From the IMG/VR virus record IMGVR_UViG_3300045988_053311: a stretch of 46,198 nt of DNA, one strand, 5' to 3'. This document shows positions 1 to 46,198 of the stretch, one piece after another. Every line of letters begins with the position of its first letter. Within the stretch, counting starts at the first letter, position 1. The DNA comes from a virus. The position numbers were made by a program, and so were the translations under genes. The notes beneath the pieces were generated by a model. It saw only the letters and a list, made by a program, of their open reading frames with translations. It was not told where the DNA came from and made no database searches.

Positions 1-82
1 GAATACCGTAGTCTTTCAGCTTTTTGTTCCTTGTCAGCATACCGTTCTCCTTTCTAATCGTCTGGGTGGTGCTTGTCGTACA
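1..82. repeat. Terminal direct repeat, copy 1 (exact copy of 46117..46198): circular-closure overlap or short terminal redundancy
   Basis: Bases 1-82 (GAATACCGTAGTCTTTCAGC...GCTTGTCGTACA) recur exactly at the last 82 bases. The repeat contains the RBS and first 40 nt of the 45842..46156 gene and the 3' end of a small ORF, so the operon reads through the junction. Confidence 0.95.
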
Positions 83-4302: not shown

Positions 4303-6282
4303 TTACGAAAACGGAACATTTGTTTCGGCATCAGCTGGCAGAAAACCAGTTTCAATAACCTCATTTTCTTGCTCGTTTTCAAGACTTTTTATATCAACAA
4401 TCTTTACCGCAATAAGCCTCATTACACTTCCACCGTCTCTTTTTAGTACCGTATCTCTTTTTCCTGTGTGCTTGATTAACTCTCGATTAATCGCCCAGGC
4501 CGAAAAGGCTTTTCTGGAGAATCCATTGTTCTTCAAAAGGTTTTCAAGAGGTTTCGGATAAAAATATACATATACATCTCCATATTCATCTGGCGTTTCC
4601 TTGAATCCCCACTGATCACAGCTAAATTGCGCATCAAAGTGCTGTCCGTACACTGAGAGACTTTCAAGAATGAATTCATAGCATCTCTGACCTTCTGATA
4701 CATCTTTCTTGCGTGTAGGTATGTCTACAACGTCCTCGACCGTCAGCTCACGTCCATCCTTAAATATGAAATCTGTAGCTAATTTGTCAGCCAGCAGAAG
4801 TGTAGATATTGCCATTACCTGCTTTGCTGGAAAGTCATATCCGTCAAAACCTTTCTCAATTTCGGCTTTCATTTCTTTCAGATCATCCGATGTGAACTGT
4901 TTGAGATTTCCAACGAACACTCTTCCAGCAAAGCCGTAGTTCTTCACGACAATGCCGTTAATCTCTGCTGGATTCTCGTAAATATCCTCACAACATTCAA
5001 TTTCAATAATTCTGTTGATAGCTCCGCCGGAATCTGCAAATTCCGAAATAGGGTTCTCACCGTTGCAAATAGTCACATTACTCCATGTATTTTCCTTAGC
5101 TGCTCCGAGGTCCTTATTTGAACGTGCTTTTCCTTTGCCAGAACAGAGATTGTAAATCAATGTTTCGTAGTTATCCCGGATATACTGAGAAGCATTCTTC
5201 GAGTCGTCCAGAATCATCGGAAAGTTATTGAGCATATCTGCCCTTGTCTCCAATGATGTATCTGTTGAACGAAAATTCCCAACGTAGGCTCCCGGTGCCG
5301 GATTCCCCCAAACCGATGCCGCTATATTGATTGTTACCGTCTTTCCGCCTCCTGTCTGCCCATAGAAATCTACGATGAACGGTAGCGCATCAAGCGGCTG
5401 TATAAGAACACTCGCAAAAGATGCTGCCAGTGCTATTCGCGGTTCCAATCGTCCGCATGATCGTAGCTGCTTAGCCAGAGTCACCCACTTGAAGTAGTCT
5501 CCACTTTCCTGTATACTTTGGAATAGCGTTTTAAAGCGGTATTCACCGTCAAAAACGATTGAAAGGTCGTAAGGGACAAATGTATTACCATGCCACCCCA
5601 GTTTGCTTGTAGAGTGCTGTATGTCGATCATATCGGCATTGTACATTTCAACATCCGCCAGATACTTTACGAGAAGCCTTGCATTCTCTGAGTTGACCTG
5701 CACCCCGAACCTTGCAAGATTAGTTATTGCCCTGGAAGTCACAATGTCAATTTTTGGAACAGTTATTTCTGTCCAATATCCATCCCTTTTAAAAGCCACC
5801 GTGATCTGTTCCTCTCCTGTCTCGATGTTTTTTAGACGACGTATCGGCATGATCGGGTGGTGACATACAAGTTCTCTTGCCTTAGATGTTTCAGAGGAAA
5901 ATATTCCGTTCTCTGTAGCTATCCAGCTACCACAAGCCATGTTAGGATATTCCTTATCAACAGAATCAGGATAAAAGTTTGTGATGTTTTCAACTAACTG
6001 CATAGAACGATTTACTTTTTCTTCTTTTTCCTTTTCCTGTTCTGCTTTCTGGAATTCCTTTATGAACTCTTCTGCTATATGCTTCGCTTTCACACTTTTT
6101 GCCCGGTCCATCAGCTTAAACTTGATTTCTGAGCGGTCAATTTTACTTTTTACTGAAAAAAGCTCTTCATACAACTGCTTTTCCATAAAGTCTTGTGCCT
6201 GTAAGTTTTCAATATTTTCAAGAATTTTTCTCACCTCCTGACTTAGCTGATAACATTTCGTATCTGCTTTTTTCTTTCTCAA
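4303..6282 (-). CDS. DUF927-type SF3 replicative helicase (phage/plasmid primase-associated helicase)
   Basis: Contains Walker A YGQTGGGKT, Walker B PMILDDS, and an N-terminal DUF927-like region (ITVAFKRDGYWTEITVPKIDI...KLGWHGNTFVPYD). The listed start overlaps the upstream gene by 65 nt; an internal ATG at 6186 is an alternative. Confidence 0.8.
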   Translation of the reverse strand: MRKKKADTKCYQLSQEVRKILENIENLQAQDFMEKQLYEELFSVKSKIDRSEIKFKLMDRAKSVKAKHIAEEFIKEFQKAEQEKEKEEKVNRSMQLVENITNFYPDSVDKEYPNMACGSWIATENGIFSSETSKARELVCHHPIMPIRRLKNIETGEEQITVAFKRDGYWTEITVPKIDIVTSRAITNLARFGVQVNSENARLLVKYLADVEMYNADMIDIQHSTSKLGWHGNTFVPYDLSIVFDGEYRFKTLFQSIQESGDYFKWVTLAKQLRSCGRLEPRIALAASFASVLIQPLDALPFIVDFYGQTGGGKTVTINIAASVWGNPAPGAYVGNFRSTDTSLETRADMLNNFPMILDDSKNASQYIRDNYETLIYNLCSGKGKARSNKDLGAAKENTWSNVTICNGENPISEFADSGGAINRIIEIECCEDIYENPAEINGIVVKNYGFAGRVFVGNLKQFTSDDLKEMKAEIEKGFDGYDFPAKQVMAISTLLLADKLATDFIFKDGRELTVEDVVDIPTRKKDVSEGQRCYEFILESLSVYGQHFDAQFSCDQWGFKETPDEYGDVYVYFYPKPLENLLKNNGFSRKAFSAWAINRELIKHTGKRDTVLKRDGGSVMRLIAVKIVDIKSLENEQENEVIETGFLPADAETNVPFS

Positions 6283-6715: not shown

Positions 6716-7209
6716 GACAGCAGCTCCACGATCCGCCGCCCAGTTTCTTCTTTCGTGCAGAATTCAAATCGGACTCCGTATCTATCTCTGATTGTGCAGA
6801 GAGATTTATACAACTGGCAGCCATCAACAGCCTTGTCAGAGATTACAGTCTTTACTTTTTTGCCGTTTATCGTCCTCCAGATAACTTTGTGTTTCCTTGG
6901 GTTCTCCCAAAAATACACATCGCCAACTGATTTAATATCTGGTCCATGCTCACATAGGATAATCAGCTGAATACCGGCTTCACGTGCCCTGATAAGTTCT
7001 GCCTTGAATCTTTCATGTTGTTGACAGACATTTCCACAAAGCTCTTGTAAATCCTTCTTACGGTCAATACAGAGCTTTGCGTTGTCAAGCGACTGATAAT
7101 CTCCACAATATAACTTTGATCTGAAATACTGCACTCCAAGGTCATCAAACTGTTTTTGAATCCGTTCCCATTCCTTTTTGTGTTCTCTTGTGTCTGCTTG
7201 TATAACCAT
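6712..7209 (-). CDS. ERCC4 (XPF/Mus81/Hef)-like nuclease, probable junction resolvase
   Basis: Motifs ADTRE ... GDY ... IDRKKDLQEL match the ERCC4 pattern D.RE / GDY / ERKxxxDL. The ATG at 7209 is preferred over the GTG at 7218. Confidence 0.7.
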   Translation of the reverse strand: MVIQADTREHKKEWERIQKQFDDLGVQYFRSKLYCGDYQSLDNAKLCIDRKKDLQELCGNVCQQHERFKAELIRAREAGIQLIILCEHGPDIKSVGDVYFWENPRKHKVIWRTINGKKVKTVISDKAVDGCQLYKSLCTIRDRYGVRFEFCTKEETGRRIVELLS

Positions 7210-7224
7210 TAAAAACACATCCTT

Positions 7225-7836
7225 TTAATTGAACGGAAGGACATCATCTGCCACGCTGTCTGGAATACTCATAAAGTCCGTACCTGACGGATTTGCTCCC
7301 ATGATAGCTTCTTCTTTCAGATGATCGTCATAGGCTTTTGTGGTACGCTCTTCTGGGATATCTGCATCCTTAATTCCCTCAATACTTCGGAACCATGCAA
7401 GCTTGTGACGTTTTACTTCTTTGTTATCGTACCAGTCTTTTTCAAGACGGAAGATTCCACCGATCAGCTTTCCTTTAAACTGCTGCCCGAAGTTATCGCC
7501 CCACTTAACGGCAAATCCCGGATTTGATTTTTCTACGCATGTGATAAATGTTTTAAGGTTACGGACACCATAATCTACACCCTCATCAATAACCATGTAA
7601 TTAGTACCTGCATTCGGATATTTCTTGTCTGGACGGATATCGTTCTCAAACTGTTTCATGAAATAGCCGGCCTGTTCGTCTCCTTCTGCGAAATCAAACA
7701 AGATAACGAGCATATCGAGTCCACCCTGTGTTTTTTTCTCTGACATCTGCTTAATTACCATCTTATGACCACCAAGCTTAATTGGTTCAAATTCTCCTGC
7801 TGCCTGTGTAGTATCGTAATTATTTGGTTTCTGCAT
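7225..7836 (-). CDS. DUF669-type phage SSB-like protein
   Basis: It sits immediately downstream of the Sak4-like ATPase, which is the usual pairing. The acidic C-terminal tip DSVADDVLPFN resembles the bacterial SSB tip DDDIPF. Confidence 0.65.
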   Translation of the reverse strand: MQKPNNYDTTQAAGEFEPIKLGGHKMVIKQMSEKKTQGGLDMLVILFDFAEGDEQAGYFMKQFENDIRPDKKYPNAGTNYMVIDEGVDYGVRNLKTFITCVEKSNPGFAVKWGDNFGQQFKGKLIGGIFRLEKDWYDNKEVKRHKLAWFRSIEGIKDADIPEERTTKAYDDHLKEEAIMGANPSGTDFMSIPDSVADDVLPFN

Positions 7837-8470
7837 TGTCTGTTCCTCCTAATTCATAATAATCTCTGATAACCTTGTCAACTTCTGCAAGGTCGTTATC
7901 AATAGTTAAACTGTCAAACATCCCGATCGGGGACTTACTTACCGCTCCCTGACTGGACTGAGTGACAAATAAGTGCTTTCCACTCTCTTCGATGCATCGA
8001 AGAACGATGGTAAACATGCCCTCGATGCAAACTTTTTCGTCCAGAAGCTTACCAATTGTCTTAGGCTTTACTTCCCCGGAGTCATCTTTTTCCTCATGCA
8101 TCATAAGGTAAACAATTTTATTCTGCGGTACTTTTGTTACAATGAACTGAATAAGATTCCAGAAGTAGTCTCCGATATCATTGTACAGAGCGAACACTGC
8201 ATTACCTTTTCCAGCAGAAGCGTGCCCCTTCATGAAATGATTCGTAATAAGATATCCTGCATCATCAATTACGATAGACTCTGCTTTTGATGCGATCAGG
8301 CACTTCATTACCTGCTGGTAATCATCTGTAAACCATCCGTCAATCTTTCCTTTAAACGGAAGCGGTTTATTCAATACTCTAATAAGATTCCAGTGTTCAT
8401 TCTGGCAGTTCCTAAGACTGGTACTCTTGCCAGAACCAGATTTTCCAATAATTAATACGGGTGTTGCCAT
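7820..8470 (-). CDS. AAA_24 / Sak4-like RecA-core recombination ATPase
   Basis: Has N-terminal Walker A IIGKSGSGKST and Walker B SIVIDDAG. Its size (about 216 aa) and position next to the DUF669 gene fit this family. Confidence 0.75.
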   Translation of the reverse strand: MATPVLIIGKSGSGKSTSLRNCQNEHWNLIRVLNKPLPFKGKIDGWFTDDYQQVMKCLIASKAESIVIDDAGYLITNHFMKGHASAGKGNAVFALYNDIGDYFWNLIQFIVTKVPQNKIVYLMMHEEKDDSGEVKPKTIGKLLDEKVCIEGMFTIVLRCIEESGKHLFVTQSSQGAVSKSPIGMFDSLTIDNDLAEVDKVIRDYYELGGTDNAETK

Positions 8471-30355: not shown

Positions 30356-31522
30356 TCATTTTGCTGTTACGCTTGTACTTCCGGCATTCAGTGCTTTGTA
30401 TGTTCCATCACACTCAACCACTGTGATCTTCTGTCCGGTTGTTGCCTTAATGTCAGCTTTTCCGTCCCAAGTAGTCCAGTTTCTGAGGTTCTGTCCATAT
30501 CCAACAGTTACTGCGTCTGCCGCAACTTTGTATTTATATACGTTGTTAGCATTTTCTTTAGCCGGATTTACAGTGATTTTTGTGTCGCCACTTGCTGTTC
30601 CAGCCGCAGATGTTACTGTCAGAGTACCAAGCGTTGGCGTTTCGTCAATGGTGATTACTGCAATTGCGTCAATGTACTCCGCAAAAAGAGTAAGCCCCAT
30701 AACTGCAAACGCTTCGGACACTGCGGTGTGGTAGTTGCCCTGAGTGTGGAATCCGATCAGGTTTGTCTCGCCAGATACAGTGTATACAAGCCCCGCTCTC
30801 GCAAAGTCAGATTCGTTAGGGTCTACATAATACAGAACAATGTTCTCAACAGGTGTTGCAATAACCTGTCCTCTTGGAATCTCGCTGTCAGATAACAGGA
30901 AGATTGTATTGAATCCCATAAAGTCTTTCATGTACTGAAATCCGAACTGGTTCTGAATAGTGATCTCAGCTGCTCCGAGGTATTCATATACGTCCAGAAT
31001 GTTCACAAATCCAACAACACCAGTCACATTCCTGTGCATCTGTTTGAATTTGTTTTCTACACGGCCTTTAGCCATTGCCAGAGCCATCTGGAATGTTGTT
31101 TCTGTGGAAGTAAGCGTACCGGTTTTCAGATAATCATAGAATCTGCCGGTAACGTCAGTCTGAAGCTGAAAAAGGAATTCATCATCAGTCATCTGAACAG
31201 CGTTCTCATAACCGTGATCCTTGATTGCTTCGATAGATACAGCCTTTGCGTACTTTTCAATAGTCATTTCCGCATAGGTCTTTTCTTTTACAGTAAACTT
31301 GCTGTAAGGGATTTCCTCACCCTCACCAACATTTCCGCTCTGCAAAGTACCCTCTGCGTATTTGGACTTGAGTACAGCACCCGGCTGTTTTTTGATAGGT
31401 CTCATGATGCCCAGAATATCACGTAAGTGCTGCCAGTTTCTTTCGAATCTGGTTACAAAGTCAATCTCACGCGCTGTGACCTGAATATCATTACTCATAA
31501 TAAGATTAGCTTTTGCTGCCAT
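30356..31522 (-). CDS. Major capsid protein with C-terminal Ig-like domain
   Basis: 388 aa, downstream of the scaffold gene. The last 90 aa or so (TLGTLTVTSAAGTASGDTKITVNPA...KITVVECDGTYKALNAGSTSVTAK) look like a Big_2-type Ig domain. Confidence 0.85.
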   Translation of the reverse strand: MAAKANLIMSNDIQVTAREIDFVTRFERNWQHLRDILGIMRPIKKQPGAVLKSKYAEGTLQSGNVGEGEEIPYSKFTVKEKTYAEMTIEKYAKAVSIEAIKDHGYENAVQMTDDEFLFQLQTDVTGRFYDYLKTGTLTSTETTFQMALAMAKGRVENKFKQMHRNVTGVVGFVNILDVYEYLGAAEITIQNQFGFQYMKDFMGFNTIFLLSDSEIPRGQVIATPVENIVLYYVDPNESDFARAGLVYTVSGETNLIGFHTQGNYHTAVSEAFAVMGLTLFAEYIDAIAVITIDETPTLGTLTVTSAAGTASGDTKITVNPAKENANNVYKYKVAADAVTVGYGQNLRNWTTWDGKADIKATTGQKITVVECDGTYKALNAGSTSVTAK

Positions 31523-31601: not shown

Positions 31602-32234
31602 TCACTGGAATAACTGGATATTCTGAGCAATTGCAGCCTGTCTTTCGGACGGGTCTTTAATTGCTTCGATATCTTTCTTAGTCATACTTCCCGGTGTCTG
31701 CTGCTGTCCAACGCGAGTGGTAAATCTTGCCTGGTTCTGCTGAGCCTGTTGCTGAGATTCATCTACAAAAGCGGATGCGTCAGACTGTTTCATCTGCTCG
31801 ATCAGATCATTCAGTCCAAGGATTTTACCGTCTTTCAGTTTAAGGCCTGCTTCTTTGATGTCTGCCATAACAGACTTCTTAGCCGCTTCACTGGAAAACT
31901 TAACATCATCGAGTGCCGCCTTGAGTGCGTCTGAGAAATCACGGTCATAGATTTTTGCATTAAATTCTTTCTCTGCATCTGCCGCTTTCTGTTTCCAAGT
32001 CTCTAACTCGGTTTTAACATTTGCCGGGTCGATACCGTCAAAACCTTTCAGGGTCTCTTCTGCTGCTTCAGCACGTTCTTTCCAGTCATCACGTTCTCCC
32101 TCGACTTTCGACAGGGTTTTTGCTACTTCCTTAGCATTTTTGTAATGCTCAGAGAGTGCTTTCTTCACATCTGCCTGTTTATCTTCCGGGATTTCGATTC
32201 CAAATGATTTTAATGTGTCAATAAGTTTCTGCAT
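31602..32234 (-). CDS. Scaffolding protein (Phage_GP20-like)
   Basis: Highly charged coiled-coil protein: MQKLIDTLKSFGIEIPEDKQADVKKALSEHY...ERDDWKERAEAAEETLK. It lies upstream of the capsid gene. Confidence 0.85.
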   Translation of the reverse strand: MQKLIDTLKSFGIEIPEDKQADVKKALSEHYKNAKEVAKTLSKVEGERDDWKERAEAAEETLKGFDGIDPANVKTELETWKQKAADAEKEFNAKIYDRDFSDALKAALDDVKFSSEAAKKSVMADIKEAGLKLKDGKILGLNDLIEQMKQSDASAFVDESQQQAQQNQARFTTRVGQQQTPGSMTKKDIEAIKDPSERQAAIAQNIQLFQ

Positions 32235-32311
32235 ATATATCCTCCTGGTCGTGTTTATTGACCTGCCGCCGCAGGTATTGGATTAAGCCAGTTAGACCAC
32301 TGGCAGGGTAA

Positions 32312-32383
32312 TGGAATGAGAGGACTTGAACCTCTGACGTCAAGAATTCAGCATCTCCGCTCTTCCTACTGAGCTACATTCCA
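32312..32383 (-). tRNA. 72-nt tRNA-like gene with canonical acceptor, D and T arms but a non-pairing anticodon stem (pseudo-tRNA or non-canonical tRNA)
   Basis: The minus strand folds as TGGAATG-TA-GCTC-AGTAGGAA-GAGC-G-GAGAT-GCTGAAT-TCTTG-ACGTC-AGAGG-TTCAAGT-CCTCT-CATTCCA. The acceptor (7 bp), D (4 bp) and T (5 bp) stems are perfect. GAGAT and TCTTG do not pair, and there is no encoded CCA. Confidence 0.55.
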
Positions 32384-32534
32384 CATAACCCGGATTCCCG
32401 GGTTAGCAAGATATTTAACGTGTTATGCCTGCCACGAGTTGTTTCGGATATTTATTTCTTTTTTTAAAAGAAAAGTATGAATAACAAAAACCTTAATCAA
32501 GGAGGTGAGCCATCTTGCGTGCCAGATGACAAAT

Positions 32535-32582
32535 ACGCACGGCAGGATTCGAACCTGTTTAACTTTCCATTAAAGCGTGCGC
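32535..32582 (-). ncRNA. 48-nt mini tRNA-like element (acceptor stem + short hairpin + T arm)
   Basis: The minus strand reads GCGCACG-CTTTAATGGAAAG-TTAA-ACAGG-TTCGAAT-CCTGC-CGTGCGT. It has a 7-bp acceptor-like stem (G1-U72 wobble) and a canonical TTCGAAT T-loop. The D and anticodon arms are replaced by a 4-bp hairpin. Confidence 0.4.
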
Positions 32583-32666
32583 ACCAGCTACTAAATTAAA
32601 GAAAGGAGGATTAAAACGAAAATGTCAAAACAACCGTTTTACTTGTGCTTCCTGCTGCACAATTAC

Positions 32667-32675
32667 ATTATAACA
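32667..32675 (-). promoter_or_regulatory. Extended -10 promoter-like TGTTATAAT heading the non-coding stretch
   Basis: On the minus strand, TGTTATAAT lies about 40 nt downstream of the stop of the 32714 gene. There is no good -35 box. Confidence 0.35.
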
Positions 32676-32713
32676 GATTTCTTTTAACTACCTCTCTACC
32701 ACTTTTTGCGTTT

Positions 32714-33271
32714 TTAAAGCATATCCCGAAGTTTTTCTACGTATCTCTTGACAAGATCGCGTTCCTCCCGGCACTCCGCATCTTTAGACATATCGCTCAT
32801 TTCTGTTGTAAGTTCGTCCAGATGTTCTTCCAGAGCGGCAAGCATCTTCCTTTTGCAGTCTTCAGACTTGCCGGAGCGATAGCTTTGCTTCTGCGCCATG
32901 TAGTCATCGTAAGCGTCTCGCCCATCAGAGCGACTGTAATGCCCTCTGACATAATGTTCACCACGTCTGGCATAAGAACTGCCCCTGTCGTAATCCGGCA
33001 TCATTCTGCCATCATTTGAACTGTATCTCCCCATACTGTCGCGCTTTCTTCCACGTTCACTGTAATCGTCATTGTATCCGCCACCACGCATCTCATCAAG
33101 AACAGTGTTGTAATATTCCACTTTCTTGTCCCAGTACTGCGTGTTCTTGATATCTTTGTACATATCAATCAGTTTGTATGTCATTTCCAGATTTCCGGTG
33201 GTCAGTCCATTATCAGCGATTTTGGAAAGTTCATCTTCGATTCTTGCACATAAGTCTTTAATATCTCTCAT
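32714..33271 (-). CDS. Low-complexity R/D/Y/S/G-rich protein with helical ends (185 aa)
   Basis: Start refined to MRDIKDL, with RBS AGGAGGTG 5 nt upstream. The centre is GGGYNDDYSERGRKRDSMGRYSSNDGRMMPDYDRGSSYARRGEHYVRGHYSRSDGRDAYDDY. Confidence 0.7.
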   Translation of the reverse strand: MRDIKDLCARIEDELSKIADNGLTTGNLEMTYKLIDMYKDIKNTQYWDKKVEYYNTVLDEMRGGGYNDDYSERGRKRDSMGRYSSNDGRMMPDYDRGSSYARRGEHYVRGHYSRSDGRDAYDDYMAQKQSYRSGKSEDCKRKMLAALEEHLDELTTEMSDMSKDAECREERDLVKRYVEKLRDML

Positions 33272-33282
33272 AATCACACCTC

Positions 33283-33705
33283 CTACGCTTCTCTGGTCAC
33301 AACAATGTTTGCGTTCGCAACAGAAATAGCCTGATCGCTTGTGTTTTCTACCGCGATATTAACGCAACATCCGCGTGGTACATCCACGTAAATTCCGGAA
33401 GACACATTATTGTACTGATCCACTGCCGCCGGCGTGGAAATCATCTGAGAAGATAATACAGGTTCGCCAGAGATTGCGATAGCCAGAGAAATAGCTCCGA
33501 CAGTACCGCCTGTTGGAATTGCGATATTGCCAGAAAAATCCACGAAAAATCTTGCTTTACACTGGTTAGTAAGCCCTCTCAGGGTAATGATTCCGCTTCC
33601 CTCTCTGTGCTGAATACAGTTAGAACCTTTGACTGCTGTGTTTGAAAATACTACGTTTCCATTTGCTGCTACAGTCTGAGCAGCTACATTTGTAAATTCT
33701 GCCAT
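33283..33705 (-). CDS. 140-aa all-beta protein; pattern reminiscent of TNF/C1q-like jelly-roll domains (BclA C-terminal domain / BxpB-like)
   Basis: RBS GAAAGGAG lies upstream. NVVFSNTAVKGSNCIQHREGSGIITL...ARFFVDFSGNIAIPTGG...ISLAIAISGEP...NIVVTREA alternates in the way exosporium TNF-like domains do. The assignment is from memory only. Confidence 0.65.
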   Translation of the reverse strand: MAEFTNVAAQTVAANGNVVFSNTAVKGSNCIQHREGSGIITLRGLTNQCKARFFVDFSGNIAIPTGGTVGAISLAIAISGEPVLSSQMISTPAAVDQYNNVSSGIYVDVPRGCCVNIAVENTSDQAISVANANIVVTREA

Positions 33706-33726
33706 AAAAATACTCCTTTCATATCA

Positions 33727-33751
33727 CAAAAGGACAGGTCTCAGCCTGCCC
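33727..33751 (-). terminator. Intrinsic terminator/attenuator inside the low-complexity gene island
   Basis: The minus-strand RNA reads GGGCAGG-CUGAGA-CCUGUCC (one G-U pair) followed by UUUUGUG. It lies between the 33817 and 33283 genes. Confidence 0.6.
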
Positions 33752-33816
33752 CTCTGTGTAATACGGCATAAGCCGACATCCGAAATCAATCGAAAGATAC
33801 TCTCAATATGAAGTTA

Positions 33817-34596
33817 TCAGCAATTGCATCCAGCGTTGCATCCGCATCCGTAATACGTGTTCGGATTAGGAACCTGATATGCCGGAATCGGTGCCGGATT
33901 GATTGCATTAATGAGCTGCTGTGTCTGAGAAGCCATTGCAGTTGTGAGAAGTGCAGACTGGCGATCCTGGGATGCGGCGCGTCTGAGGTCATTGTTTTCA
34001 GCCTGAAGAGAAGAAATCTTTTCATTGCAAAGATAATCAAGAATGGCTCTTGTCCCTGCATTCTGGCTGTCGATAATGTCTCTTGTGTTGCTGTTCATGG
34101 TGTTCTGCAATGCACAGGTGTTCTGTGCCATATTGTAATTTACGCCCTGGATAGCTTCCCTGGTTTCACAACAGCAGTTCGCAAGCTGTGCCTGGAGCGC
34201 ATTTGTGTTCTGCATATTGGCTACAGTATCGGCATTGATTGCCTGCTGGATTCCAAAACCAGTCTGCATGATATTGGTGTTGATTCCGTTAAATCCGGTA
34301 AGCATACCGTTGTTCACTGCATAGAATCCATCACAGAGTCCGTTATTGATTCCGTCAAGCTTGCTGATCACAGCGGAATTGTCGAATCCTCTCTGAATAT
34401 CCGCCTGAGTAGCTGCTGTGGCTACATATCCGCCGCCGTTTCCATTATTGCCCCAGCCATTGTTTCCCCATCCGAAGAAAGCAAAGATGAATAAAACAAT
34501 AATCCACCAGCTACCATCTCCACCAAACATGCCGTCATTATTTCTACCGTTTCCAGTAGCAGCGGCAATATCTGCTAAGCTATAATTTCCATCCAT
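33817..34596 (-). CDS. N/G/Q-rich membrane-anchored protein with Cys-rich C-terminus (259 aa)
   Basis: GGDGSWWIIVLFIFAFFGWGNNGWGNNGNGGG is a TM helix flanked by Gly/Asn, in the style of YjcZ-type sporulation peptides. The protein has a long Asn/Gln-rich helical region with CCCETR and ends in YYGCGCNAGCNC. Confidence 0.75.
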   Translation of the reverse strand: MDGNYSLADIAAATGNGRNNDGMFGGDGSWWIIVLFIFAFFGWGNNGWGNNGNGGGYVATAATQADIQRGFDNSAVISKLDGINNGLCDGFYAVNNGMLTGFNGINTNIMQTGFGIQQAINADTVANMQNTNALQAQLANCCCETREAIQGVNYNMAQNTCALQNTMNSNTRDIIDSQNAGTRAILDYLCNEKISSLQAENNDLRRAASQDRQSALLTTAMASQTQQLINAINPAPIPAYQVPNPNTYYGCGCNAGCNC

Positions 34597-34625
34597 AATA
34601 TAATCTCCTTTTTGTGTATTTACAT

Positions 34626-34641
34626 CAATCTGGCCAGATTG
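34626..34641. repeat. Perfect 16-bp palindrome CAATCTGGCCAGATTG upstream of the 33817..34596 gene
   Basis: Read directly from the sequence. It lies in the 52-nt gap between two island genes. Confidence 0.8.
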
Positions 34642-34648
34642 TAATGTA

Positions 34649-34870
34649 CTATTTCATTCCTTTCAACATGTGCTGGAATTGCCCTGCCATTTGCTGAACC
34701 TGATTAAGTTGCTGTTGAGAAATCTTTCCAGACTGCAACATTTTCTCGACTTCTGCTTTCGGATCTCCCTTAAAATTCTGTTTAAACTGCATAAATTGTT
34801 GTATCATCTGCATTGGTCCGTTTCCCTGCGGCATCCCGCCGCCAAGTGCGTTAAATAATGGATTACTCAT
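34649..34870 (-). CDS. Gln/Met-rich small protein (73 aa)
   Basis: Start refined to MSNPLFNALGGGMPQGNGPMQMIQQFMQFKQNFKG, with RBS GGGAGGAA 6 nt upstream. Confidence 0.65.
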   Translation of the reverse strand: MSNPLFNALGGGMPQGNGPMQMIQQFMQFKQNFKGDPKAEVEKMLQSGKISQQQLNQVQQMAGQFQHMLKGMK

Positions 34871-35333
34871 CTGCATTTCCTCCCTTGATTGCTGATTCCT
34901 GTACGGTATTAGCCCTAACAGGTTCAGAAAATGAATTTAATCGGTTTATAATAGCTTCGTATTTGCCTTTCAAATCATCGTATTCCTGTCGAGTAACATA
35001 TTTACTGTCCATGTTCTGAACAGGCTGCTTAGGCGGCATCTGAGAACCTACCTCGTGGTATTCAAATGTCCGCAGTGGTTGTGGCATACCGGATACATCT
35101 GTGGATTTTATGTAGAACTTTTCACTTTCGCTGTCCATCAGCAAAACACTTGTCCCGGGTGCTACCAGATAGGATTTTGCGCCGACTTCGCCGGATACCC
35201 ACAGGATACCGCTATTATTCTGCTGTGGTTGCTGTACTGGTTGAGCTGGAATCTGGACAGGCTGTTGCTGGAACTGGTTCATTTGCCCAGGAGCACCAAA
35301 ACTATATTGATAAGGATTGTTATATAATGCCAT
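34863..35333 (-). CDS. Protein with Q/P-rich N-terminus and small beta domain (156 aa)
   Basis: Start refined to MALYNNPYQYSFGAPGQMNQFQQQPVQIPAQPVQQPQQ. It then continues ILWVSGEVGAKSYLVAPGTSVLLMDSESEKFYIKSTD. It is the first gene after the 35368-35401 terminator. Confidence 0.7.
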   Translation of the reverse strand: MALYNNPYQYSFGAPGQMNQFQQQPVQIPAQPVQQPQQNNSGILWVSGEVGAKSYLVAPGTSVLLMDSESEKFYIKSTDVSGMPQPLRTFEYHEVGSQMPPKQPVQNMDSKYVTRQEYDDLKGKYEAIINRLNSFSEPVRANTVQESAIKGGNADE

Positions 35334-35367
35334 CTTATACACCGCCTTTCTGATTATATTTTTACAT

Positions 35368-35401
35368 AAAAAAAGAACCGGAAACAGGTCGTTTCTGGCT
35401 C
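35368..35401 (-). terminator. Intrinsic terminator in the middle of the head-gene region
   Basis: The minus-strand RNA reads GAGCCAGAAAC-GACCU-GUUUCCGGUUC followed by UUUUUUU (A7 on the plus strand at 35368-35374). Confidence 0.7.
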
Positions 35402-35421
35402 TAATTAGTATCCAAAAAGTA

Positions 35422-35622
35422 TCAGCACACTTTAATTATTTTATTGTTCACCCGGCGGCTTAACCGTTTTGCCGTAGATATACTCACGTTCATCTGCTCA
35501 GCGCAGTATTCGAGCGTATGTTCTTTACATCTCAGTCGGAACAATCTTTCTTCGTCCGGTGTGAAATTACACTCTATCAAGAATCTGTCTATATCTTTCT
35601 TCGTGAACACATATAATTTCAT
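35422..35622 (-). CDS. Sigma-70 region-4-like (LuxR/ECF-type HTH) small DNA-binding protein
   Basis: FTPDEERLFRLRCKEHTLEYCAEQMNVSISTAKRLSRRVNNKI matches the region-4 pattern (LT..E..vf.L......s..EiA..l.iS..TVk....R...K). It is 66 aa. Confidence 0.65.
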   Translation of the reverse strand: MKLYVFTKKDIDRFLIECNFTPDEERLFRLRCKEHTLEYCAEQMNVSISTAKRLSRRVNNKIIKVC

Positions 35623-35642
35623 GAGCATACCCCTTACTAATG

Positions 35643-35948
35643 CTAACGCTGATTCTGCGCAAGATAATTTGTAAGCTTCTGTTTTGTTTTTTTTAATTCT
35701 TCTACATTATTCCCACTAATCTGACTATCCAGCATGGTTGATAGCACTTCCAAAATCAATGAATCACGTTCCGCAATCCTCTGAAGACTCTCGTAATCTC
35801 GCTTATCATGTTCTTCTAGTGTCTCAACTCGCTTGTTGAGCCGAAATGCCGGAGTAATCCACTTAAAAATAACAGCTGCTGCCCCTCCGACAATAGACAC
35901 CCCTCCGCAGATAGAAAGAAAAATCTGTACAAATTCTGATATGCTCAT
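35643..35948 (-). CDS. N-terminally membrane-anchored coiled-coil protein (101 aa)
   Basis: FVQIFLSICGGVSIVGGAAAVIF is a TM helix, followed by a charged helical region. Confidence 0.65.
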   Translation of the reverse strand: MSISEFVQIFLSICGGVSIVGGAAAVIFKWITPAFRLNKRVETLEEHDKRDYESLQRIAERDSLILEVLSTMLDSQISGNNVEELKKTKQKLTNYLAQNQR

Positions 35949-35952
35949 TTAG

Positions 35953-36336
35953 CTACTCCTTTTCCCAGTAGTATATTGGGATCTCATTACCACTATCCCA
36001 TGTATCGAAATATTTGCCCTCTTGTACCGTCACCACATGACCATCTACGCAGAGAATGTATGTGCCTGTCGGATGTTCTGCACAAAAATCATTGACTGTA
36101 TAGATATATCGCTCTGATTGTTCAATCAGTTTGCGTCTGTACCCATGTTTGTAGAGGTACGCTCCCCAAACGTAATTAGCTGATGGCATATCTGACAGAG
36201 CATATGCCTGTATCATTAATCCGACAAATACCGTTTCCCAGTCGAAGTCAGTTGCTTTGCATATTGCTCGGACAACGCAATCTCCTGTTCTCTTATCCTT
36301 AACAGGATTTGGATTATAATATTCCCATCTGTCCAT
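35953..36336 (-). CDS. 127-aa protein with papain-like Cys...His...Asp arrangement (putative cysteine peptidase fold)
   Basis: Residues GDCVVRAI (Cys20), VDGHVVTV and FDTWDSG are arranged as in such folds. The start is translationally coupled (TGATG) to the minor capsid gene. The assignment is inferential. Confidence 0.6.
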   Translation of the reverse strand: MDRWEYYNPNPVKDKRTGDCVVRAICKATDFDWETVFVGLMIQAYALSDMPSANYVWGAYLYKHGYRRKLIEQSERYIYTVNDFCAEHPTGTYILCVDGHVVTVQEGKYFDTWDSGNEIPIYYWEKE

Positions 36337-45841: not shown

Positions 45842-46156
45842 TTATTCATCCTCCCACATTCCCAACAACCGCATCCTCTCATACAGTACAGCGACGGTCT
45901 TGCGTCTGTATCCGTAAAAGTCCTTCGGATTCATCGGGATATATCTTTCTCTGCTGATTTTCCTGTAACTTTTCCGGTGCAAGATATTCTCAATAACCAT
46001 ATCTGCTATCACCGTGTTTTTCGGGCAAGCTGACAAGGCGGCACTGGAAAGCAGGTATCCGTACTCTGCCGGAAAGTCTTTCAGCATCGCATTCAGTTTT
46101 TCAATGTCTTCTGCCGGAATACCGTAGTCTTTCAGCTTTTTGTTCCTTGTCAGCAT
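45842..46156 (-). CDS. 104-aa protein, paralogue of 42916..43212
   Basis: ORF track. Its start and RBS lie inside the terminal repeat. It shares KDYGIPAEDIEKL ... DFYGYRRK with the copy upstream of terL. Confidence 0.65.
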   Translation of the reverse strand: MLTRNKKLKDYGIPAEDIEKLNAMLKDFPAEYGYLLSSAALSACPKNTVIADMVIENILHRKSYRKISRERYIPMNPKDFYGYRRKTVAVLYERMRLLGMWEDE

Positions 46157-46198
46157 ACCGTTCTCCTTTCTAATCGTCTGGGTGGTGCTTGTCGTACA
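46117..46198. repeat. Terminal direct repeat, copy 2 (exact copy of 1..82)
   Basis: Identical to bases 1-82 by direct comparison. Confidence 0.95.

What the first reader, a model, noticed from the sequence alone, without database searches (positions are those of the whole stretch)
32235..32713. 479-bp non-coding island: tRNA-like gene with an unpaired anticodon stem, a 48-nt mini tRNA-like element and two 16S-3'-end-like motifs
This is the largest gap without a plausible ORF on the coding (minus) strand. On that strand it contains, in order:
- An extended -10 box, TGTTATAAT.
- AATCCTCCTTTCTTTAA.
- A 48-nt element at 32535-32582 with a 7-bp acceptor-like stem and a canonical T arm (ACAGG-TTCGAAT-CCTGC), but only a 4-bp hairpin in place of the D and anticodon arms.
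- GGCTCACCTCCTTGATTAAGG, which resembles the Firmicute 16S rRNA 3' end GGCTGGATCACCTCCTTTCTAAGG.
- A CCCGG-GAAT-CCGGG hairpin.
- A 72-nt tRNA-like gene at 32312-32383. Its acceptor, D and T arms are perfect, but the anticodon stem (GAGAT/TCTTG) cannot pair in any register and no U33 falls in place.
- Two GC hairpins, GCCAGT-N6-ACTGGC and ACCTGC-GGCG-GCAGGT.

On the plus strand the two anti-SD-like motifs read as very strong SDs (AAGGAGGTGA and AAAGGAGGA). They precede only a 4-codon ORF and a 21-codon ORF (MSKQPFYLCFLLHNYIITDFF, 32622-32687).

Several explanations are possible: decayed phage tRNA genes; non-canonical tRNA-like decoys, for example against anticodon nucleases or tRNA-targeting defence; a structured ncRNA of the kind found next to tRNAs in prophages; or a leader-peptide device on the opposite strand. 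I cannot discriminate between these by eye.
Basis: partly seen in the sequence, partly recalled or inferred. Interest (0 to 1): 0.72.

Follow-up and report, generated by a model that had tools for sequence, protein, structure and literature searches.

The report
Phage tRNA-like island before capsid genes
A non-coding stretch in front of a gut phage's capsid genes holds a tRNA with a crippled anticodon loop, a tRNA look-alike lacking its anticodon arm, and two motifs resembling the end of ribosomal RNA; together they look like a 'cut here' cassette for RNA processing, a new variant of the tRNA and non-coding-RNA islands already known from phages.

Summary
All the listed features are present at the stated coordinates and lie on the gene (minus) strand.

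- **What the window is:** a complete 46.1-kb temperate phage of gut Clostridia. The island sits between an unknown gene and the scaffold and major-capsid genes.
- **Variable slot:** in over 230 related phage loci the same island has constant flanks around a variable slot. The slot holds 1-4 tRNAs or tRNA-like genes, and in two relatives a ROOL RNA.
- **The tRNA-like gene:** it is a well-folded tRNA. ARAGORN calls it Gln-CUG and Rfam scores it 43.7 bits. Its anticodon arm does pair, in the register its family uses: 4 bp, with nucleotide 31 missing and G33 in place of the universal U33. A purine at position 33 recurs in about a third of the distinct tRNA sequences called across all fetched loci.
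- **The 48-nt mini tRNA:** it is a tRNA without an anticodon arm. It occupies exactly the place that RAGATH-21 RNA (Rfam RF03097) holds in sister phages.
- **The two 16S-like CCUCC boxes:** they flank RAGATH-21 in 98 of 107 distinct contexts.
- **Plus-strand peptides:** not conserved.
- **Ribozyme, tmRNA and T-box readings:** all failed.
- **Best model (inferred, untested):** the tRNA-shaped modules are RNase P / RNase Z cutting points. They would separate a hairpin-capped leader RNA from a hairpin-capped late mRNA, and the tRNA-like gene is probably inert in translation.

The parts
32667..32675 (-). Extended -10 promoter box TGTTATAAT. This is the island's own promoter; the -35 element is weak.
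   Evidence: Read directly. The TGnTAnAAT form is kept in both allelic leader types and in Dulem virus 35. The consensus scan does not list it because the -35 is poor.
32596..32612 (-). Box 1, AAUCCUCCUUUCUUUAA. It resembles the anti-Shine-Dalgarno 3' end of 16S rRNA. The CCUCC core lies at 32605-32609.
   Evidence: CCUCC lies within 30 nt upstream of the P1 stem of RAGATH-21 in 98 of 107 distinct contexts. One of only two sense-strand CCUCCUU sites in the minus-strand gene region.
32532..32585 (-). tRNA-like element without an anticodon arm, standing in the place of RAGATH-21. Parts: 10-bp P1 (32576-32585 with 32532-32541), D-arm-like hairpin CUUU-AAUGG-AAAG (32563-32575), and T arm ACAGG-UUCGAAU-CCUGC (32542-32558).
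   Evidence: In 21 variants 99% of cells are paired, two pairs show compensatory changes and three are G.U pairs. The Rfam tRNA model aligns it end to end with the anticodon arm deleted, at 13.1 bits and E=2, which is below threshold. Same position as RF03097 in sister loci.
32509..32530 (-). 7-bp hairpin GUCAUCU-GGCACGCA-AGAUGGC immediately before box 2.
   Evidence: The other leader types have a hairpin at the same place with unrelated sequence. G.U wobbles fit the minus strand only.
32491..32511 (-). Box 2, GGCUCACCUCCUUGAUUAAGG. It resembles the 16S rRNA 3' end. The CCUCC core lies at 32501-32505.
   Evidence: A hairpin followed by ACCUCCUU downstream of RAGATH-21 recurs in most contexts, including a separate lineage.
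32406..32473 (-). Spacer holding an A/U hairpin (32455-32473), CCGAAAC, a CGUG-loop-CACG hairpin (32419-32436) and the linker UUAAAUAUCUUGC. Conserved; role unknown.
   Evidence: Conserved in both leader types. No Rfam family matches. A resemblance to the pistol ribozyme was tested and rejected.
32386..32405 (-). Left frame hairpin UAACCCGG-GAAU-CCGGGUUA, ending 2 nt before tRNA position 1.
   Evidence: Constant in all core-lineage loci, directly before the first tRNA-shaped element.
32311..32383 (-). tRNA-like gene with a Gln-type acceptor stem (U1-A72, G2-C71, G3-C70) and anticodon CUG. The anticodon arm (32342-32357) has a 4-bp stem, an 8-nt loop, no nucleotide 31, and G33 instead of U33.
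   Evidence: ARAGORN calls tRNA-Gln(CUG). Rfam tRNA scores 43.7 bits. Family alignment and covariation. The identical arm occurs in 37 fetched loci.
32235..32310 (-). Conserved structured 5' UTR of the scaffold gene: UACCCU, hairpin A (32287-32304), UUAAUCCA (32279-32286), hairpin B (32261-32276), AAUAAACACG, and the Shine-Dalgarno site AGGAGGAU (32239-32246). The start codon begins at 32234.
   Evidence: Six stem pairs change on both sides across 11 diverse relatives and 95.5% of cells are paired. The UTR always starts directly after a tRNA-shaped element.

Best explanation
**What it is.** The island is the sense-strand, promoter-driven non-coding leader of the head-morphogenesis (scaffold and major capsid) genes. 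The phage is a temperate phage of gut Clostridia.

**How it is built.** It is a modular RNA island made of tRNA-derived parts, in this order:
1. An extended -10 promoter.
2. A CCUCC box.
3. A tRNA-like element without an anticodon arm, which replaces the RAGATH-21 RNA of sister phages.
4. A hairpin followed by a second CCUCC box.
5. A spacer ending in a stable hairpin.
6. One tRNA-Gln-type gene whose anticodon loop is crippled (G33, 8-nt loop).
7. A conserved two-hairpin 5' UTR leading to the scaffold gene's ribosome-binding site.

**Proposed mechanism (inferred).** The whole stretch is transcribed as one RNA. The tRNA-shaped modules are recognised by their acceptor/T-arm/elbow shape and cut out by host RNase P and RNase Z.
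- This would release a leader RNA whose 3' end is capped by the frame hairpin.
- It would also release a late mRNA whose 5' end is capped by hairpin A.

Only the tRNA shape matters for this role. That would explain why relatives carry any tRNA, a tRNA with a disabled loop, an arm-less mini-tRNA or RAGATH-21 at the same junction. It also makes the window's copy most likely inert in translation.

The CCUCC boxes most likely pair with Shine-Dalgarno sequences, either the scaffold gene's own or others.
For: **Shown here**
- Only one Rfam family (tRNA) and one ARAGORN gene are found in the window.
- G.U pairs and covariation put the mini element, the tRNA and the UTR hairpins on the minus strand.
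- No terminator-like site lies on the minus strand between the island and the scaffold gene.
- The island's length varies from 462 to 1588 nt among phages whose scaffold protein is 97-100% identical. The flanks stay constant while the tRNA content varies.
- In 239 loci (79 distinct contexts) the element touching the conserved 5' UTR is always tRNA-shaped or RAGATH-21. The distance from T loop to UTR is fixed at 11-12 nt.
- In Dulem virus 35, RAGATH-21 itself abuts the UTR and there is no tRNA.
- In distant relatives an arm-less mini-tRNA (L169, L170) or an aberrant tRNA (L172) holds that place.
- The element at that junction has a non-canonical anticodon loop in 120 of the 239 loci, and ARAGORN makes no call in a further 38.
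- In L012 and L037 a ROOL RNA is bracketed by tRNAs with no spacing.
- In an unrelated phage lineage a CGCAUAG (G33) tRNA-like gene sits 4-5 nt before the ribosome-binding site of a gene.

**Inferred from established knowledge**
- RNase P and RNase Z recognise the acceptor/T-arm/elbow part of a tRNA.
- Terminal hairpins protect RNAs from exonucleases in Firmicutes.
Against: - No transcript or cleavage data exist for either strand.
- The 10-bp outer stem of the mini element and of RAGATH-21 is longer than the 7-bp acceptor stem that RNase P and RNase Z measure.
- The frame hairpin lies only 2 nt from the tRNA's 5' end, which could hinder RNase P.
- Many relatives carry fully canonical tRNAs in the slot, so the cargo may matter in its own right.
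- The aberrant loops are not random. Across the purine-33 family as a whole, position 33 is always a purine, A37 is kept and the anticodons are sensible triplets (CAU, UAU, CUG, UAA). Most of these loops are 7 nt, although the window's own loop is 8 nt.
- The phage prefers the codon CAG (333 against 120 CAA).
- Together these points hint at selection on the loop itself, for decoding or for mimicry.
- The role of the CCUCC boxes is untested. Pairing of box 1 with the scaffold Shine-Dalgarno site appears only in a single-sequence fold and shows no covariation.
Confidence: 0.5

Rival explanations
1. The gene is a working tRNA-Gln(CUG). It supplies the phage's preferred CAG codon, and its altered anticodon loop (G33, missing nucleotide 31) lets it escape host nucleases that cut tRNA anticodon loops. 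This would match what has been proposed for other phage tRNAs.
For: - Gln-type acceptor stem: U1-A72, G2-C71, G3-C70.
- All tertiary-contact nucleotides are intact, and the gene passes Rfam's threshold.
- CAG is used 333 times against 120 CAA.
- The purine at position 33 recurs together with A37 and real anticodons. CAU and UAU alternate in one backbone, and both can read AUA.
- The same backbone with a canonical loop exists as an amber suppressor in another phage.
- Published precedent: PMC10264068 and PMC11555353.
Against: - U33 is nearly universal because it forms the U-turn of the anticodon loop (established knowledge).
- The window copy also has only a 4-bp stem and an 8-nt loop.
- In the commonest sister class (CGCAUAG), C32 and G38 can pair, which closes the loop to 5 nt.
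- Arm-less and grossly deformed elements occupy the same slot in other relatives. Decoding is therefore not required there.
Confidence: 0.2
2. The gene is a non-decoding decoy. It would be a tRNA mimic with an uncleavable loop that soaks up tRNA-targeting defence nucleases or other tRNA-binding factors.
For: - The tRNA body is preserved while differences are concentrated in the anticodon arm. The window copy and L041 are identical outside a 16-nt arm.
- Purine 33 sits at the position next to the cut site of PrrC-type nucleases (established knowledge).
- High turnover of the slot resembles an arms-race locus.
Against: - No defence or anti-defence gene was linked to the slot here.
- Canonical tRNAs and RAGATH-21 fill the same position.
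- Nothing shows binding to any nuclease.
Confidence: 0.12
3. The tRNA-like gene and the mini element are decaying remnants of tRNA genes under no selection. They persist only because the island recombines often.
For: - Canonical tRNAs (Asn, Tyr, Gln-UUG, Met, Ile, Ser) occupy the slot in relatives.
- The window's anticodon arm has a deletion.
- Sequences within the window's class are too similar to one another to measure selection.
Against: - Damage is confined to the anticodon arm, while acceptor, D and T arms and all tertiary nucleotides are intact.
- The family's anticodon stem covaries.
- Stems of the mini element covary.
- No fetched locus with the conserved 5' UTR lacks a tRNA-shaped element (or RAGATH-21) directly abutting it.
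- The same purine-33 change recurs in independent backbones and in a separate phage lineage.
Confidence: 0.1
4. The leader is a cis-acting translational switch. The CCUCC boxes mask the scaffold gene's Shine-Dalgarno site, and the RAGATH-21-type element senses a ligand or a protein. On this reading the tRNA is incidental.
For: - The minimum-energy fold pairs AUCCUCCU (box 1) with AGGAGGAU (the scaffold SD), closing the whole island.
- Box 1 accompanies RAGATH-21 almost everywhere.
- In Dulem virus 35 only RAGATH-21 and the UTR separate box 1 from the SD.
Against: - There is no covariation beyond the SD/anti-SD core.
- The partners lie about 360 nt apart in the window.
- Relative L169 has the UTR and a mini-tRNA but no CCUCC box.
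Confidence: 0.05
5. The plus strand is the functional one. The two strong SD-like sequences would drive short peptides, for example MSKQPFYLCFLLHNYIITDFF.
For: An SD-like sequence followed by an ATG 5-12 nt later is present after box 1 in most core-lineage relatives.
Against: - The ORF occupies three different frames in near-identical relatives, because homopolymer runs change in length.
- The ORFs after box 2 are 3-9 codons long and not conserved.
- Distant relatives have no ATG there, or ATG followed directly by TGA.
- G.U pairs would become A.C mismatches on the plus strand.
Confidence: 0.02

Closest known systems
RAGATH-21 RNA motif (Rfam RF03097; from the Weinberg et al. 2017 survey of candidate structured RNAs, PMC5737381)
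   Same: - The window's mini element sits at the same place in the island.
- It has a 10-bp outer stem whose outer six pairs are nearly identical to those of sister RAGATH-21 copies, while the inner four covary.
- Its 5' junction sequence is similar: CUUUAAUGGAAAG against CUUAAUAGAAA.
- A terminal hairpin with a 7-nt loop abuts the 3' strand of the outer stem.
- It lies between the same two CCUCC boxes.
   Different: - It lacks the P2 hairpin and the GAGGUUGAAAAGC hairpin.
- Its terminal hairpin is a canonical tRNA T arm (GGUUCGAAUCC) instead of GGAUGCAAUUUCC.
- The Rfam model gives no match at E<=10.
Phage and prophage tRNA islands carrying the large ornate RNAs ROOL and GOLLD
   Same: - Prophage setting and co-location of tRNAs with structured non-coding RNAs.
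- Two close relatives (L012, L037) carry a ROOL RNA at 382-384 bits inside the same array.
- The literature notes that ROOL and GOLLD lie near tRNA islands (PMC5737381, PMC12286853).
   Different: - The window itself has no ROOL or GOLLD.
- The island sits inside the head-gene module, directly upstream of the scaffold gene.
- Its flanks are fixed hairpin frames.
tRNA punctuation and the MALAT1-mascRNA type of processing (works like, from general knowledge)
   Same: - A tRNA-shaped element lies between two functional RNAs.
- A stable structure sits just upstream of the presumed RNase P site.
- The anticodon region of the tRNA-like element is free to degenerate.
   Different: Those are mitochondrial and eukaryotic nuclear systems. 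Cleavage has not been demonstrated here.
Phage tRNAs with anticodon-loop changes that evade tRNA-targeting defences (PMC10264068, PMC11555353)
   Same: Both are phage-encoded tRNAs whose differences from normal tRNAs are concentrated in the anticodon loop.
   Different: The published cases keep a canonical 7-nt loop with U33. PMC10264068 does not mention position 33. Here U33 itself is replaced and the stem or loop length is altered.
Theta (HDV-like) ribozymes that process tRNA 3' ends in gut phages (PMC10879173)
   Same: Both involve a gut phage with a conserved structured element starting directly at the tRNA's 3' end.
   Different: - The element here folds as two simple covarying hairpins.
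- No nested double pseudoknot could be drawn.
- No HDV-type Rfam family matched.
C-rich seed regions of Firmicute regulatory RNAs such as RsaE/RoxS, and the 3' end of 16S rRNA (general knowledge)
   Same: - Both have single-stranded CCUCC-type sequences complementary to Shine-Dalgarno sites.
- Box 1 matches CCUCCUUUCU of the 16S rRNA 3' end.
- Box 2 matches UCACCUCCUU...UAAGG of the 16S rRNA 3' end.
   Different: No target has been identified. The boxes flank a tRNA-like element, and no sequence homology to those RNAs exists.

Membership tests
tRNA (Rfam RF00005) | Cloverleaf with 7-bp acceptor stem, D arm with G18 G19, and T arm with the GUUCRANYC loop | tested here: met
   43.7 bits against a gathering score of 29. 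U8, A14, G18, G19, G53, T54, T55, C56, A58 and C61 are all present.
tRNA (Rfam RF00005) | 5-bp anticodon stem and 7-nt loop with U33 and a purine at 37 | tested here: not met
   4-bp stem, nucleotide 31 absent, 8-nt loop UGCUGAAU, G33. A37 is present. The Rfam alignment skips the arm.
tRNA (Rfam RF00005) | Aminoacylation and decoding on the ribosome | not testable with these tools
   Needs acid gels, tRNA-seq or in-vitro translation.
RAGATH-21 (RF03097), for the mini element | Match to the covariance model at the gathering score (70.3 bits) | tested here: not met
   No RF03097 match at E<=10 in a 651-nt search or an 86-nt search. Sister loci score 75-94 bits.
RAGATH-21 (RF03097), for the mini element | 10-bp P1 enclosing the junction CUUAAUAGAAA, with a 3' terminal hairpin that has a 7-nt loop | tested here: met
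   P1 is GGUGCGCACG with CGUGCGUAUU, the junction is CUUUAAUGGAAAG, and the terminal hairpin has the loop UUCGAAU (compare).
RAGATH-21 (RF03097), for the mini element | P2 hairpin and the small GUU-GAAA-AGC hairpin, giving a four-way junction | tested here: not met
   Both are absent in the window type. One relative of the window type (L006) has a P2-like hairpin.
ROOL (RF03087) / GOLLD | A large (over 500 nt) multi-junction RNA matching the Rfam model | tested here: not met
   No match anywhere in the window. ROOL is present only in relatives L012 and L037.
Theta / HDV-like ribozyme | Nested double pseudoknot (P1, P1.1, P2, P3) starting at the tRNA 3' end, with a catalytic C in J4/2 | tested here: not met
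   No HDV-type Rfam match. By inspection no P3 or P1.1 can be formed. Covariation supports two independent hairpins instead.
Pistol ribozyme (RF02679) | P1, P2 and P3 stems, plus a 6-bp pseudoknot between the P1 loop and the P2-P3 junction (PMC6154101) | tested here: not met
   No Rfam match. No 3' strand for P2 exists. The candidate loop pairing CAUAA/UUAUG is not kept in relatives.
tmRNA | tRNA-like domain plus a tag-peptide reading frame | tested here: not met
   ARAGORN finds no tmRNA and Rfam gives no match.
T-box leader | Match to the Rfam T-box model (stem I specifier loop and T-box antiterminator sequence) | tested here: not met
   No Rfam T-box match at E<=10.

The most novel reading that the evidence does not exclude
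Gut phages may deliberately build tRNAs that are inert in translation, with a purine at position 33 and a closed or mis-sized anticodon loop. They may also build further stripped-down derivatives: arm-less mini-tRNAs and RAGATH-21 itself. These would be general-purpose handles that host RNase P and RNase Z cut, or that tRNA-targeting immune nucleases bind.

On this reading the composite 'CCUCC box - tRNA-elbow mimic - hairpin - CCUCC box' is a functional RNA. It would imitate the 3' end of 16S rRNA next to a tRNA shape so as to capture Shine-Dalgarno sequences or ribosome-associated factors during late infection.
Probability: 0.25. Interest if true: 0.75.

Novelty: new variant of a known kind. 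Interest (0 to 1): 0.58.

Why it matters
- **RAGATH-21 gets a context.** The function of RAGATH-21 and ROOL is not known (ROOL per PMC12286853; no function for RAGATH-21 was found in the held papers). Here RAGATH-21 is interchangeable with tRNA-shaped elements, is flanked by two anti-Shine-Dalgarno-like boxes, and sits in the leader of the capsid genes. That makes its function testable through RNase P and RNase Z assays and reporter fusions.
- **ROOL processing.** Relatives show ROOL bracketed exactly by tRNAs, which suggests how such RNAs are cut out of their transcripts.
- **Purine at tRNA position 33.** Its recurrent use is unusual for an otherwise intact tRNA body, whether for evasion, mimicry or deliberate disabling. 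It matters for annotating phage tRNAs and for the current debate on tRNA-targeting immunity.
- **Limits.** If only the conservative reading holds, this is an ordinary, though neatly organised, phage tRNA and ncRNA island.

Tried and rejected
1. **Pistol ribozyme.** I recalled a resemblance of CGUG..CACGUUAAAUAUCUUGCUAA to a pistol sequence. There is no Rfam match, no 3' strand for P2, and no conserved pseudoknot partner. A candidate pairing of the loop GGCAGG with CCUGCC after the tRNA does not covary: L003-type loops differ while the right flank stays the same.
2. **Theta / HDV-like ribozyme after the tRNA.** No fold can be drawn and there is no Rfam match. Covariation supports two plain hairpins.
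3. **Hammerhead.** CCGAAAC is present but there is no CUGAUGA.
4. **tmRNA, T-box, YrlA-type RNAs, GOLLD and ROOL in the window.** No matches.
5. **Plus-strand peptides.** The reading frames are not conserved.
6. **Pairing of box 1 with the GGAGG inside RAGATH-21, or with the scaffold Shine-Dalgarno site.** Only the CCUC/GAGG core is ever complementary, so covariation cannot decide.
7. **Local structure of the first 60-80 nt of the transcript.** There is no consistent fold, and z-scores range from -1.5 to +0.6.
8. **Literature.** No held paper mentions RAGATH-21 by name, and the supplement of the discovery paper is not held. No paper was found on phage tRNAs lacking U33.
9. **Specific trans targets for the boxes.** The best matches are simply the strongest ribosome-binding sites in the genome.
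Full report
**Setting**

- The window is a complete phage genome of 46,116 bp. Its first 82 nt are repeated at the end.
- It encodes an integrase, terminase, portal, minor head protein, head scaffolding protein (31602-32234) and major head protein (30356-31522).
- Nearly all genes lie on the minus strand.
- The closest named relatives of the capsid protein are Dulem virus 35 (84% identity), Dorea phage DO134P1 and Flavonifractor phage Chenonceau.
- Genome hits fall in Dorea, Lachnospiraceae and Oscillospiraceae assemblies.
- The host is therefore a gut Clostridium-class Firmicute that uses strong Shine-Dalgarno (SD) sites.
- More than 500 IMG/VR contigs encode a scaffold protein related to this one. 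The 80 best that were kept are 97-100% identical.

**Checking the observation**

- ARAGORN calls one gene in the whole window, tRNA-Gln(CUG) at 32310-32384.
- Rfam finds one family at gathering score, tRNA at 32311-32383 with 43.7 bits against 29. Its alignment skips the anticodon arm.
- A permissive Rfam search of 32150-32800 adds nothing credible. There is no tmRNA, T-box, GOLLD, ROOL, HDV-like, pistol or RAGATH-21 match.
- CCTCCTT occurs on the minus strand four times in 46 kb. Two are the SD sites of plus-strand genes and two are in the island, 104 nt apart.
- The other sizeable gaps between long ORFs contain 87-101-aa minus-strand ORFs. 'Largest ORF-free gap on the coding strand' therefore holds.

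**The island is modular and its middle is hypervariable**

In 84 related loci the space between the upstream gene and the scaffold gene ranges from 462 to 1588 nt. Read in gene orientation, the layout is constant:

1. Extended -10 box (TGnTAnAAT).
2. A small hairpin.
3. Box 1, CCUCCUUUC.
4. A long-stem multi-helix element.
5. A hairpin.
6. Box 2, ACCUCCUUG.
7. A spacer.
8. The frame hairpin UAACCCGG-GAAU-CCGGGUUA.
9. A variable array.
10. The constant sequence UUACCCU, hairpin A, UUAAUCCA, hairpin B, AAUAAACACG, the SD site and AUG.

The array holds one to four genes, including tRNA-Asn(GUU), Tyr(GUA), Gln(UUG), Met(CAU), Ile(UAU) and Ser(GCU). It also holds many odd tRNA-like genes. In L012 and L037 it contains a ROOL RNA at 382-384 bits. 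That ROOL abuts a tRNA at both ends.

**The mini tRNA is the local stand-in for RAGATH-21**

- In the second allelic leader type, the long-stem element matches Rfam RAGATH-21 at 75-94 bits. It does so too in Dulem virus 35 and in two genome-assembly relatives, L170 and L171.
- The window's element occupies the same position between the same two boxes.
- It has a 10-bp outer stem, GGUGCGCACG with CGUGCGUAUU, including three G.U pairs.
- Its junction CUUUAAUGGAAAG resembles the consensus CUUAAUAGAAA.
- Its terminal hairpin has a 7-nt loop and abuts the 3' strand of the stem.
- It lacks the two middle hairpins, and its terminal hairpin is a textbook T arm.
- Across 21 variants 99% of stem cells pair. 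Pair 7-53 switches G-C to A-U, and the fifth T-stem pair switches A-U to G-C. The window's own copy has A.C at that pair.
- The Rfam tRNA model aligns the element end to end: acceptor, D arm (CUUU-AAUGG-AAAG), anticodon arm deleted, T arm, discriminator. The score is 13.1 bits with E=2, which is not significant.
- I therefore describe it as a tRNA without an anticodon arm and as a positional and architectural equivalent of RAGATH-21. It is not a member of RF03097, because that model does not match it.

**The tRNA-like gene**

- A pattern search of IMG/VR found 83 stretches with the same D arm and variable loop. Together with the earlier loci they give 23 distinct sequences.
- Aligned, they support the cloverleaf strongly: 12 pairs change on both sides, 96% of cells are paired, and no shuffle does as well.
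- Four of the five anticodon-stem pairs covary.
- In that register the window's arm is G27.U43, A28-U42, G29-C41, A30-U40, a gap at 31, and the loop U32 G33 C34 U35 G36 A37 A38 U39.
- The acceptor stem (U1-A72, G2-C71, G3-C70) is of the bacterial tRNA-Gln type (general knowledge). CAG is the phage's preferred Gln codon, 333 against 120 CAA.
- The sister genes carry loops C-G-CAU-A-G, C-A-CAU-A-G, C/U-G-UAU-A-G and C-A-AAA-A-A. Position 33 is always a purine, and C32 can often pair with G38.
- The only canonical loop in this backbone is an amber suppressor (CUCUAAA) from an unrelated 116-kb phage, L094.
- Of 113 distinct tRNA sequences that ARAGORN calls in all fetched loci, 36 have a purine at 33.
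- The CGCAUAG loop also occurs in two other backbones, and in a different phage lineage. There the gene ends 4-5 nt before the SD site of the next gene.

**The junction rule**

- In 239 loci (79 distinct contexts) the conserved 5' UTR begins at a fixed distance of 11-12 nt after a T loop. The one exception is Dulem virus 35, where it begins directly after the outer stem of RAGATH-21.
- In distant relatives the abutting element is an arm-less mini-tRNA (L169, L170) or a tRNA with a deformed anticodon arm (L172).
- Counted by locus, the abutting element has a canonical loop in 81 loci, a non-canonical loop in 120, and is not callable in 38.
- The UTR hairpins covary: six pairs change on both sides and 95.5% of cells are paired.
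- No terminator-like site separates the island from the scaffold gene on the minus strand.

**Interpretation**

*Shown:*
- The structures lie on the sense strand.
- There is a constant frame around an exchangeable slot.
- A tRNA-shaped element is always present at the junction.
- Canonical anticodon loops are frequently lost at that junction.
- The slot is equivalent for tRNAs, mini-tRNAs and RAGATH-21.

*Inferred:*
- The shape, not decoding, is what is required.
- The likely users of that shape are RNase P and RNase Z.
- Cutting would leave a leader RNA that ends in the frame hairpin and a late mRNA that begins just before hairpin A. Both ends would be protected.
- The same logic would release ROOL in relatives.
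- The purine at 33, and loop closure, may keep such handles out of translation.

I give this model about 0.5. The loop features are too regular for pure neglect, so a nuclease-evading decoder (0.2) or a decoy (0.12) remains open.

**The CCUCC boxes**

- Box 1 reproduces CCUCCUUUCU of the Firmicute 16S rRNA 3' end. Box 2 reproduces UCACCUCCUU...UAAGG.
- CCUCC lies within 30 nt upstream of RAGATH-21 in 98 of 107 distinct contexts. A hairpin followed by ACCUCC follows the element in most of them, including a separate lineage. The boxes therefore belong to an extended RAGATH-21 unit.
- The Rfam match spans only P1 to P1', so the boxes lie outside the modelled motif.
- They are not plus-strand ribosome-binding sites (see the next section).
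- What they pair with is unknown. A single-sequence fold pairs box 1 with the scaffold SD site. Only the core is complementary in relatives, so this stays a hypothesis.

**The plus-strand reading fails**

- The ORF after box 1 appears in three frames among near-identical phages.
- The ORFs after box 2 are 3-9 codons long and unrelated to one another.
- Distant relatives have no start codon there.

**Comparison and novelty**

The island is a member of the known class of phage tRNA and ncRNA islands (RAGATH-21, ROOL). The following were not found described in the papers searched:
- The trimmed, T-arm-bearing variant of RAGATH-21.
- The anti-SD-like boxes flanking that motif.
- The fixed hairpin frames.
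- The junction rule.
- The recurrent purine-33 tRNA-like genes.

I rate it a new variant of a known kind, of moderate interest.

Noticed in passing
window 1-82 and 46117-46198: The first 82 nt of the window recur at its end, so the window is a circularly closed genome of 46,116 bp.
   Followed up: partly
L037 1784-2343; L012 1784-2343: A ROOL RNA (RF03087, 382-384 bits) lies inside the tRNA array of two close relatives. Its 5' end overlaps the 3' end of a tRNA or tRNA-like gene, and its 3' end meets the 5' end of tRNA-Ser(GCU). tRNA processing would therefore excise it exactly.
   Followed up: partly
L094 5266-5339 (minus orientation), contig IMGVR_UViG_3300049046_000039: A 116-kb phage carries an amber-suppressor tRNA (anticodon CUA, CCA encoded). 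Its D arm and variable loop are the same as in the window's tRNA-like gene, but its loop is canonical (CUCUAAA).
   Followed up: no
L285 about 4950-5740; L286 about 7080-7870 (minus orientation): A different phage lineage has a long non-coding island with several tRNAs and structured spacers. It ends in a G33 (CGCAUAG) tRNA-like gene only 4-5 nt before the ribosome-binding site of the next gene.
   Followed up: partly
L003 island positions 430-598 and 673-799; L037 island positions 458-614 and 689-805: Two conserved spacers lie between tRNAs in the longer arrays. One is about 155 nt and is closed by UGUUUGGAG...CUUCCAAACA. The other is about 125 nt. Neither has an Rfam match, and they may be further non-coding RNAs.
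   Followed up: no
L065 / L072 versus L073 (array element, 68 nt): The same short tRNA backbone carries anticodon GUA (Tyr) in two phages and GCA (Cys) in another. This is a one-base anticodon switch in an otherwise identical gene, and the 3' strand of the D stem is truncated.
   Followed up: no
window 32235-32310 (minus strand) and relatives L169, L170, L172, L173: The 5' UTR of the scaffold gene is a conserved structured RNA. Hairpin A has the invariant loop UGGUYUAW, followed by UWAAUCC, hairpin B and AAUMAAYMACG. It is kept in distant relatives and absent from Rfam.
   Followed up: partly
window 32714-36336 (minus strand): Eight small genes lie between the minor head protein and the island. 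The four scanned match only PHROGs families of unknown function. One of them encodes a Gly/Asn/Cys-rich 259-aa protein (33817-34596).
   Followed up: no
RAGATH-21 copies in L001, L003, L170 and others: The conserved core of RAGATH-21 contains GGAGGU followed 11 nt later by AUG in the terminal loop. This looks like a ribosome-binding site on the sense strand, flanked by the two CCUCC boxes. The window's trimmed variant lacks it.
   Followed up: no
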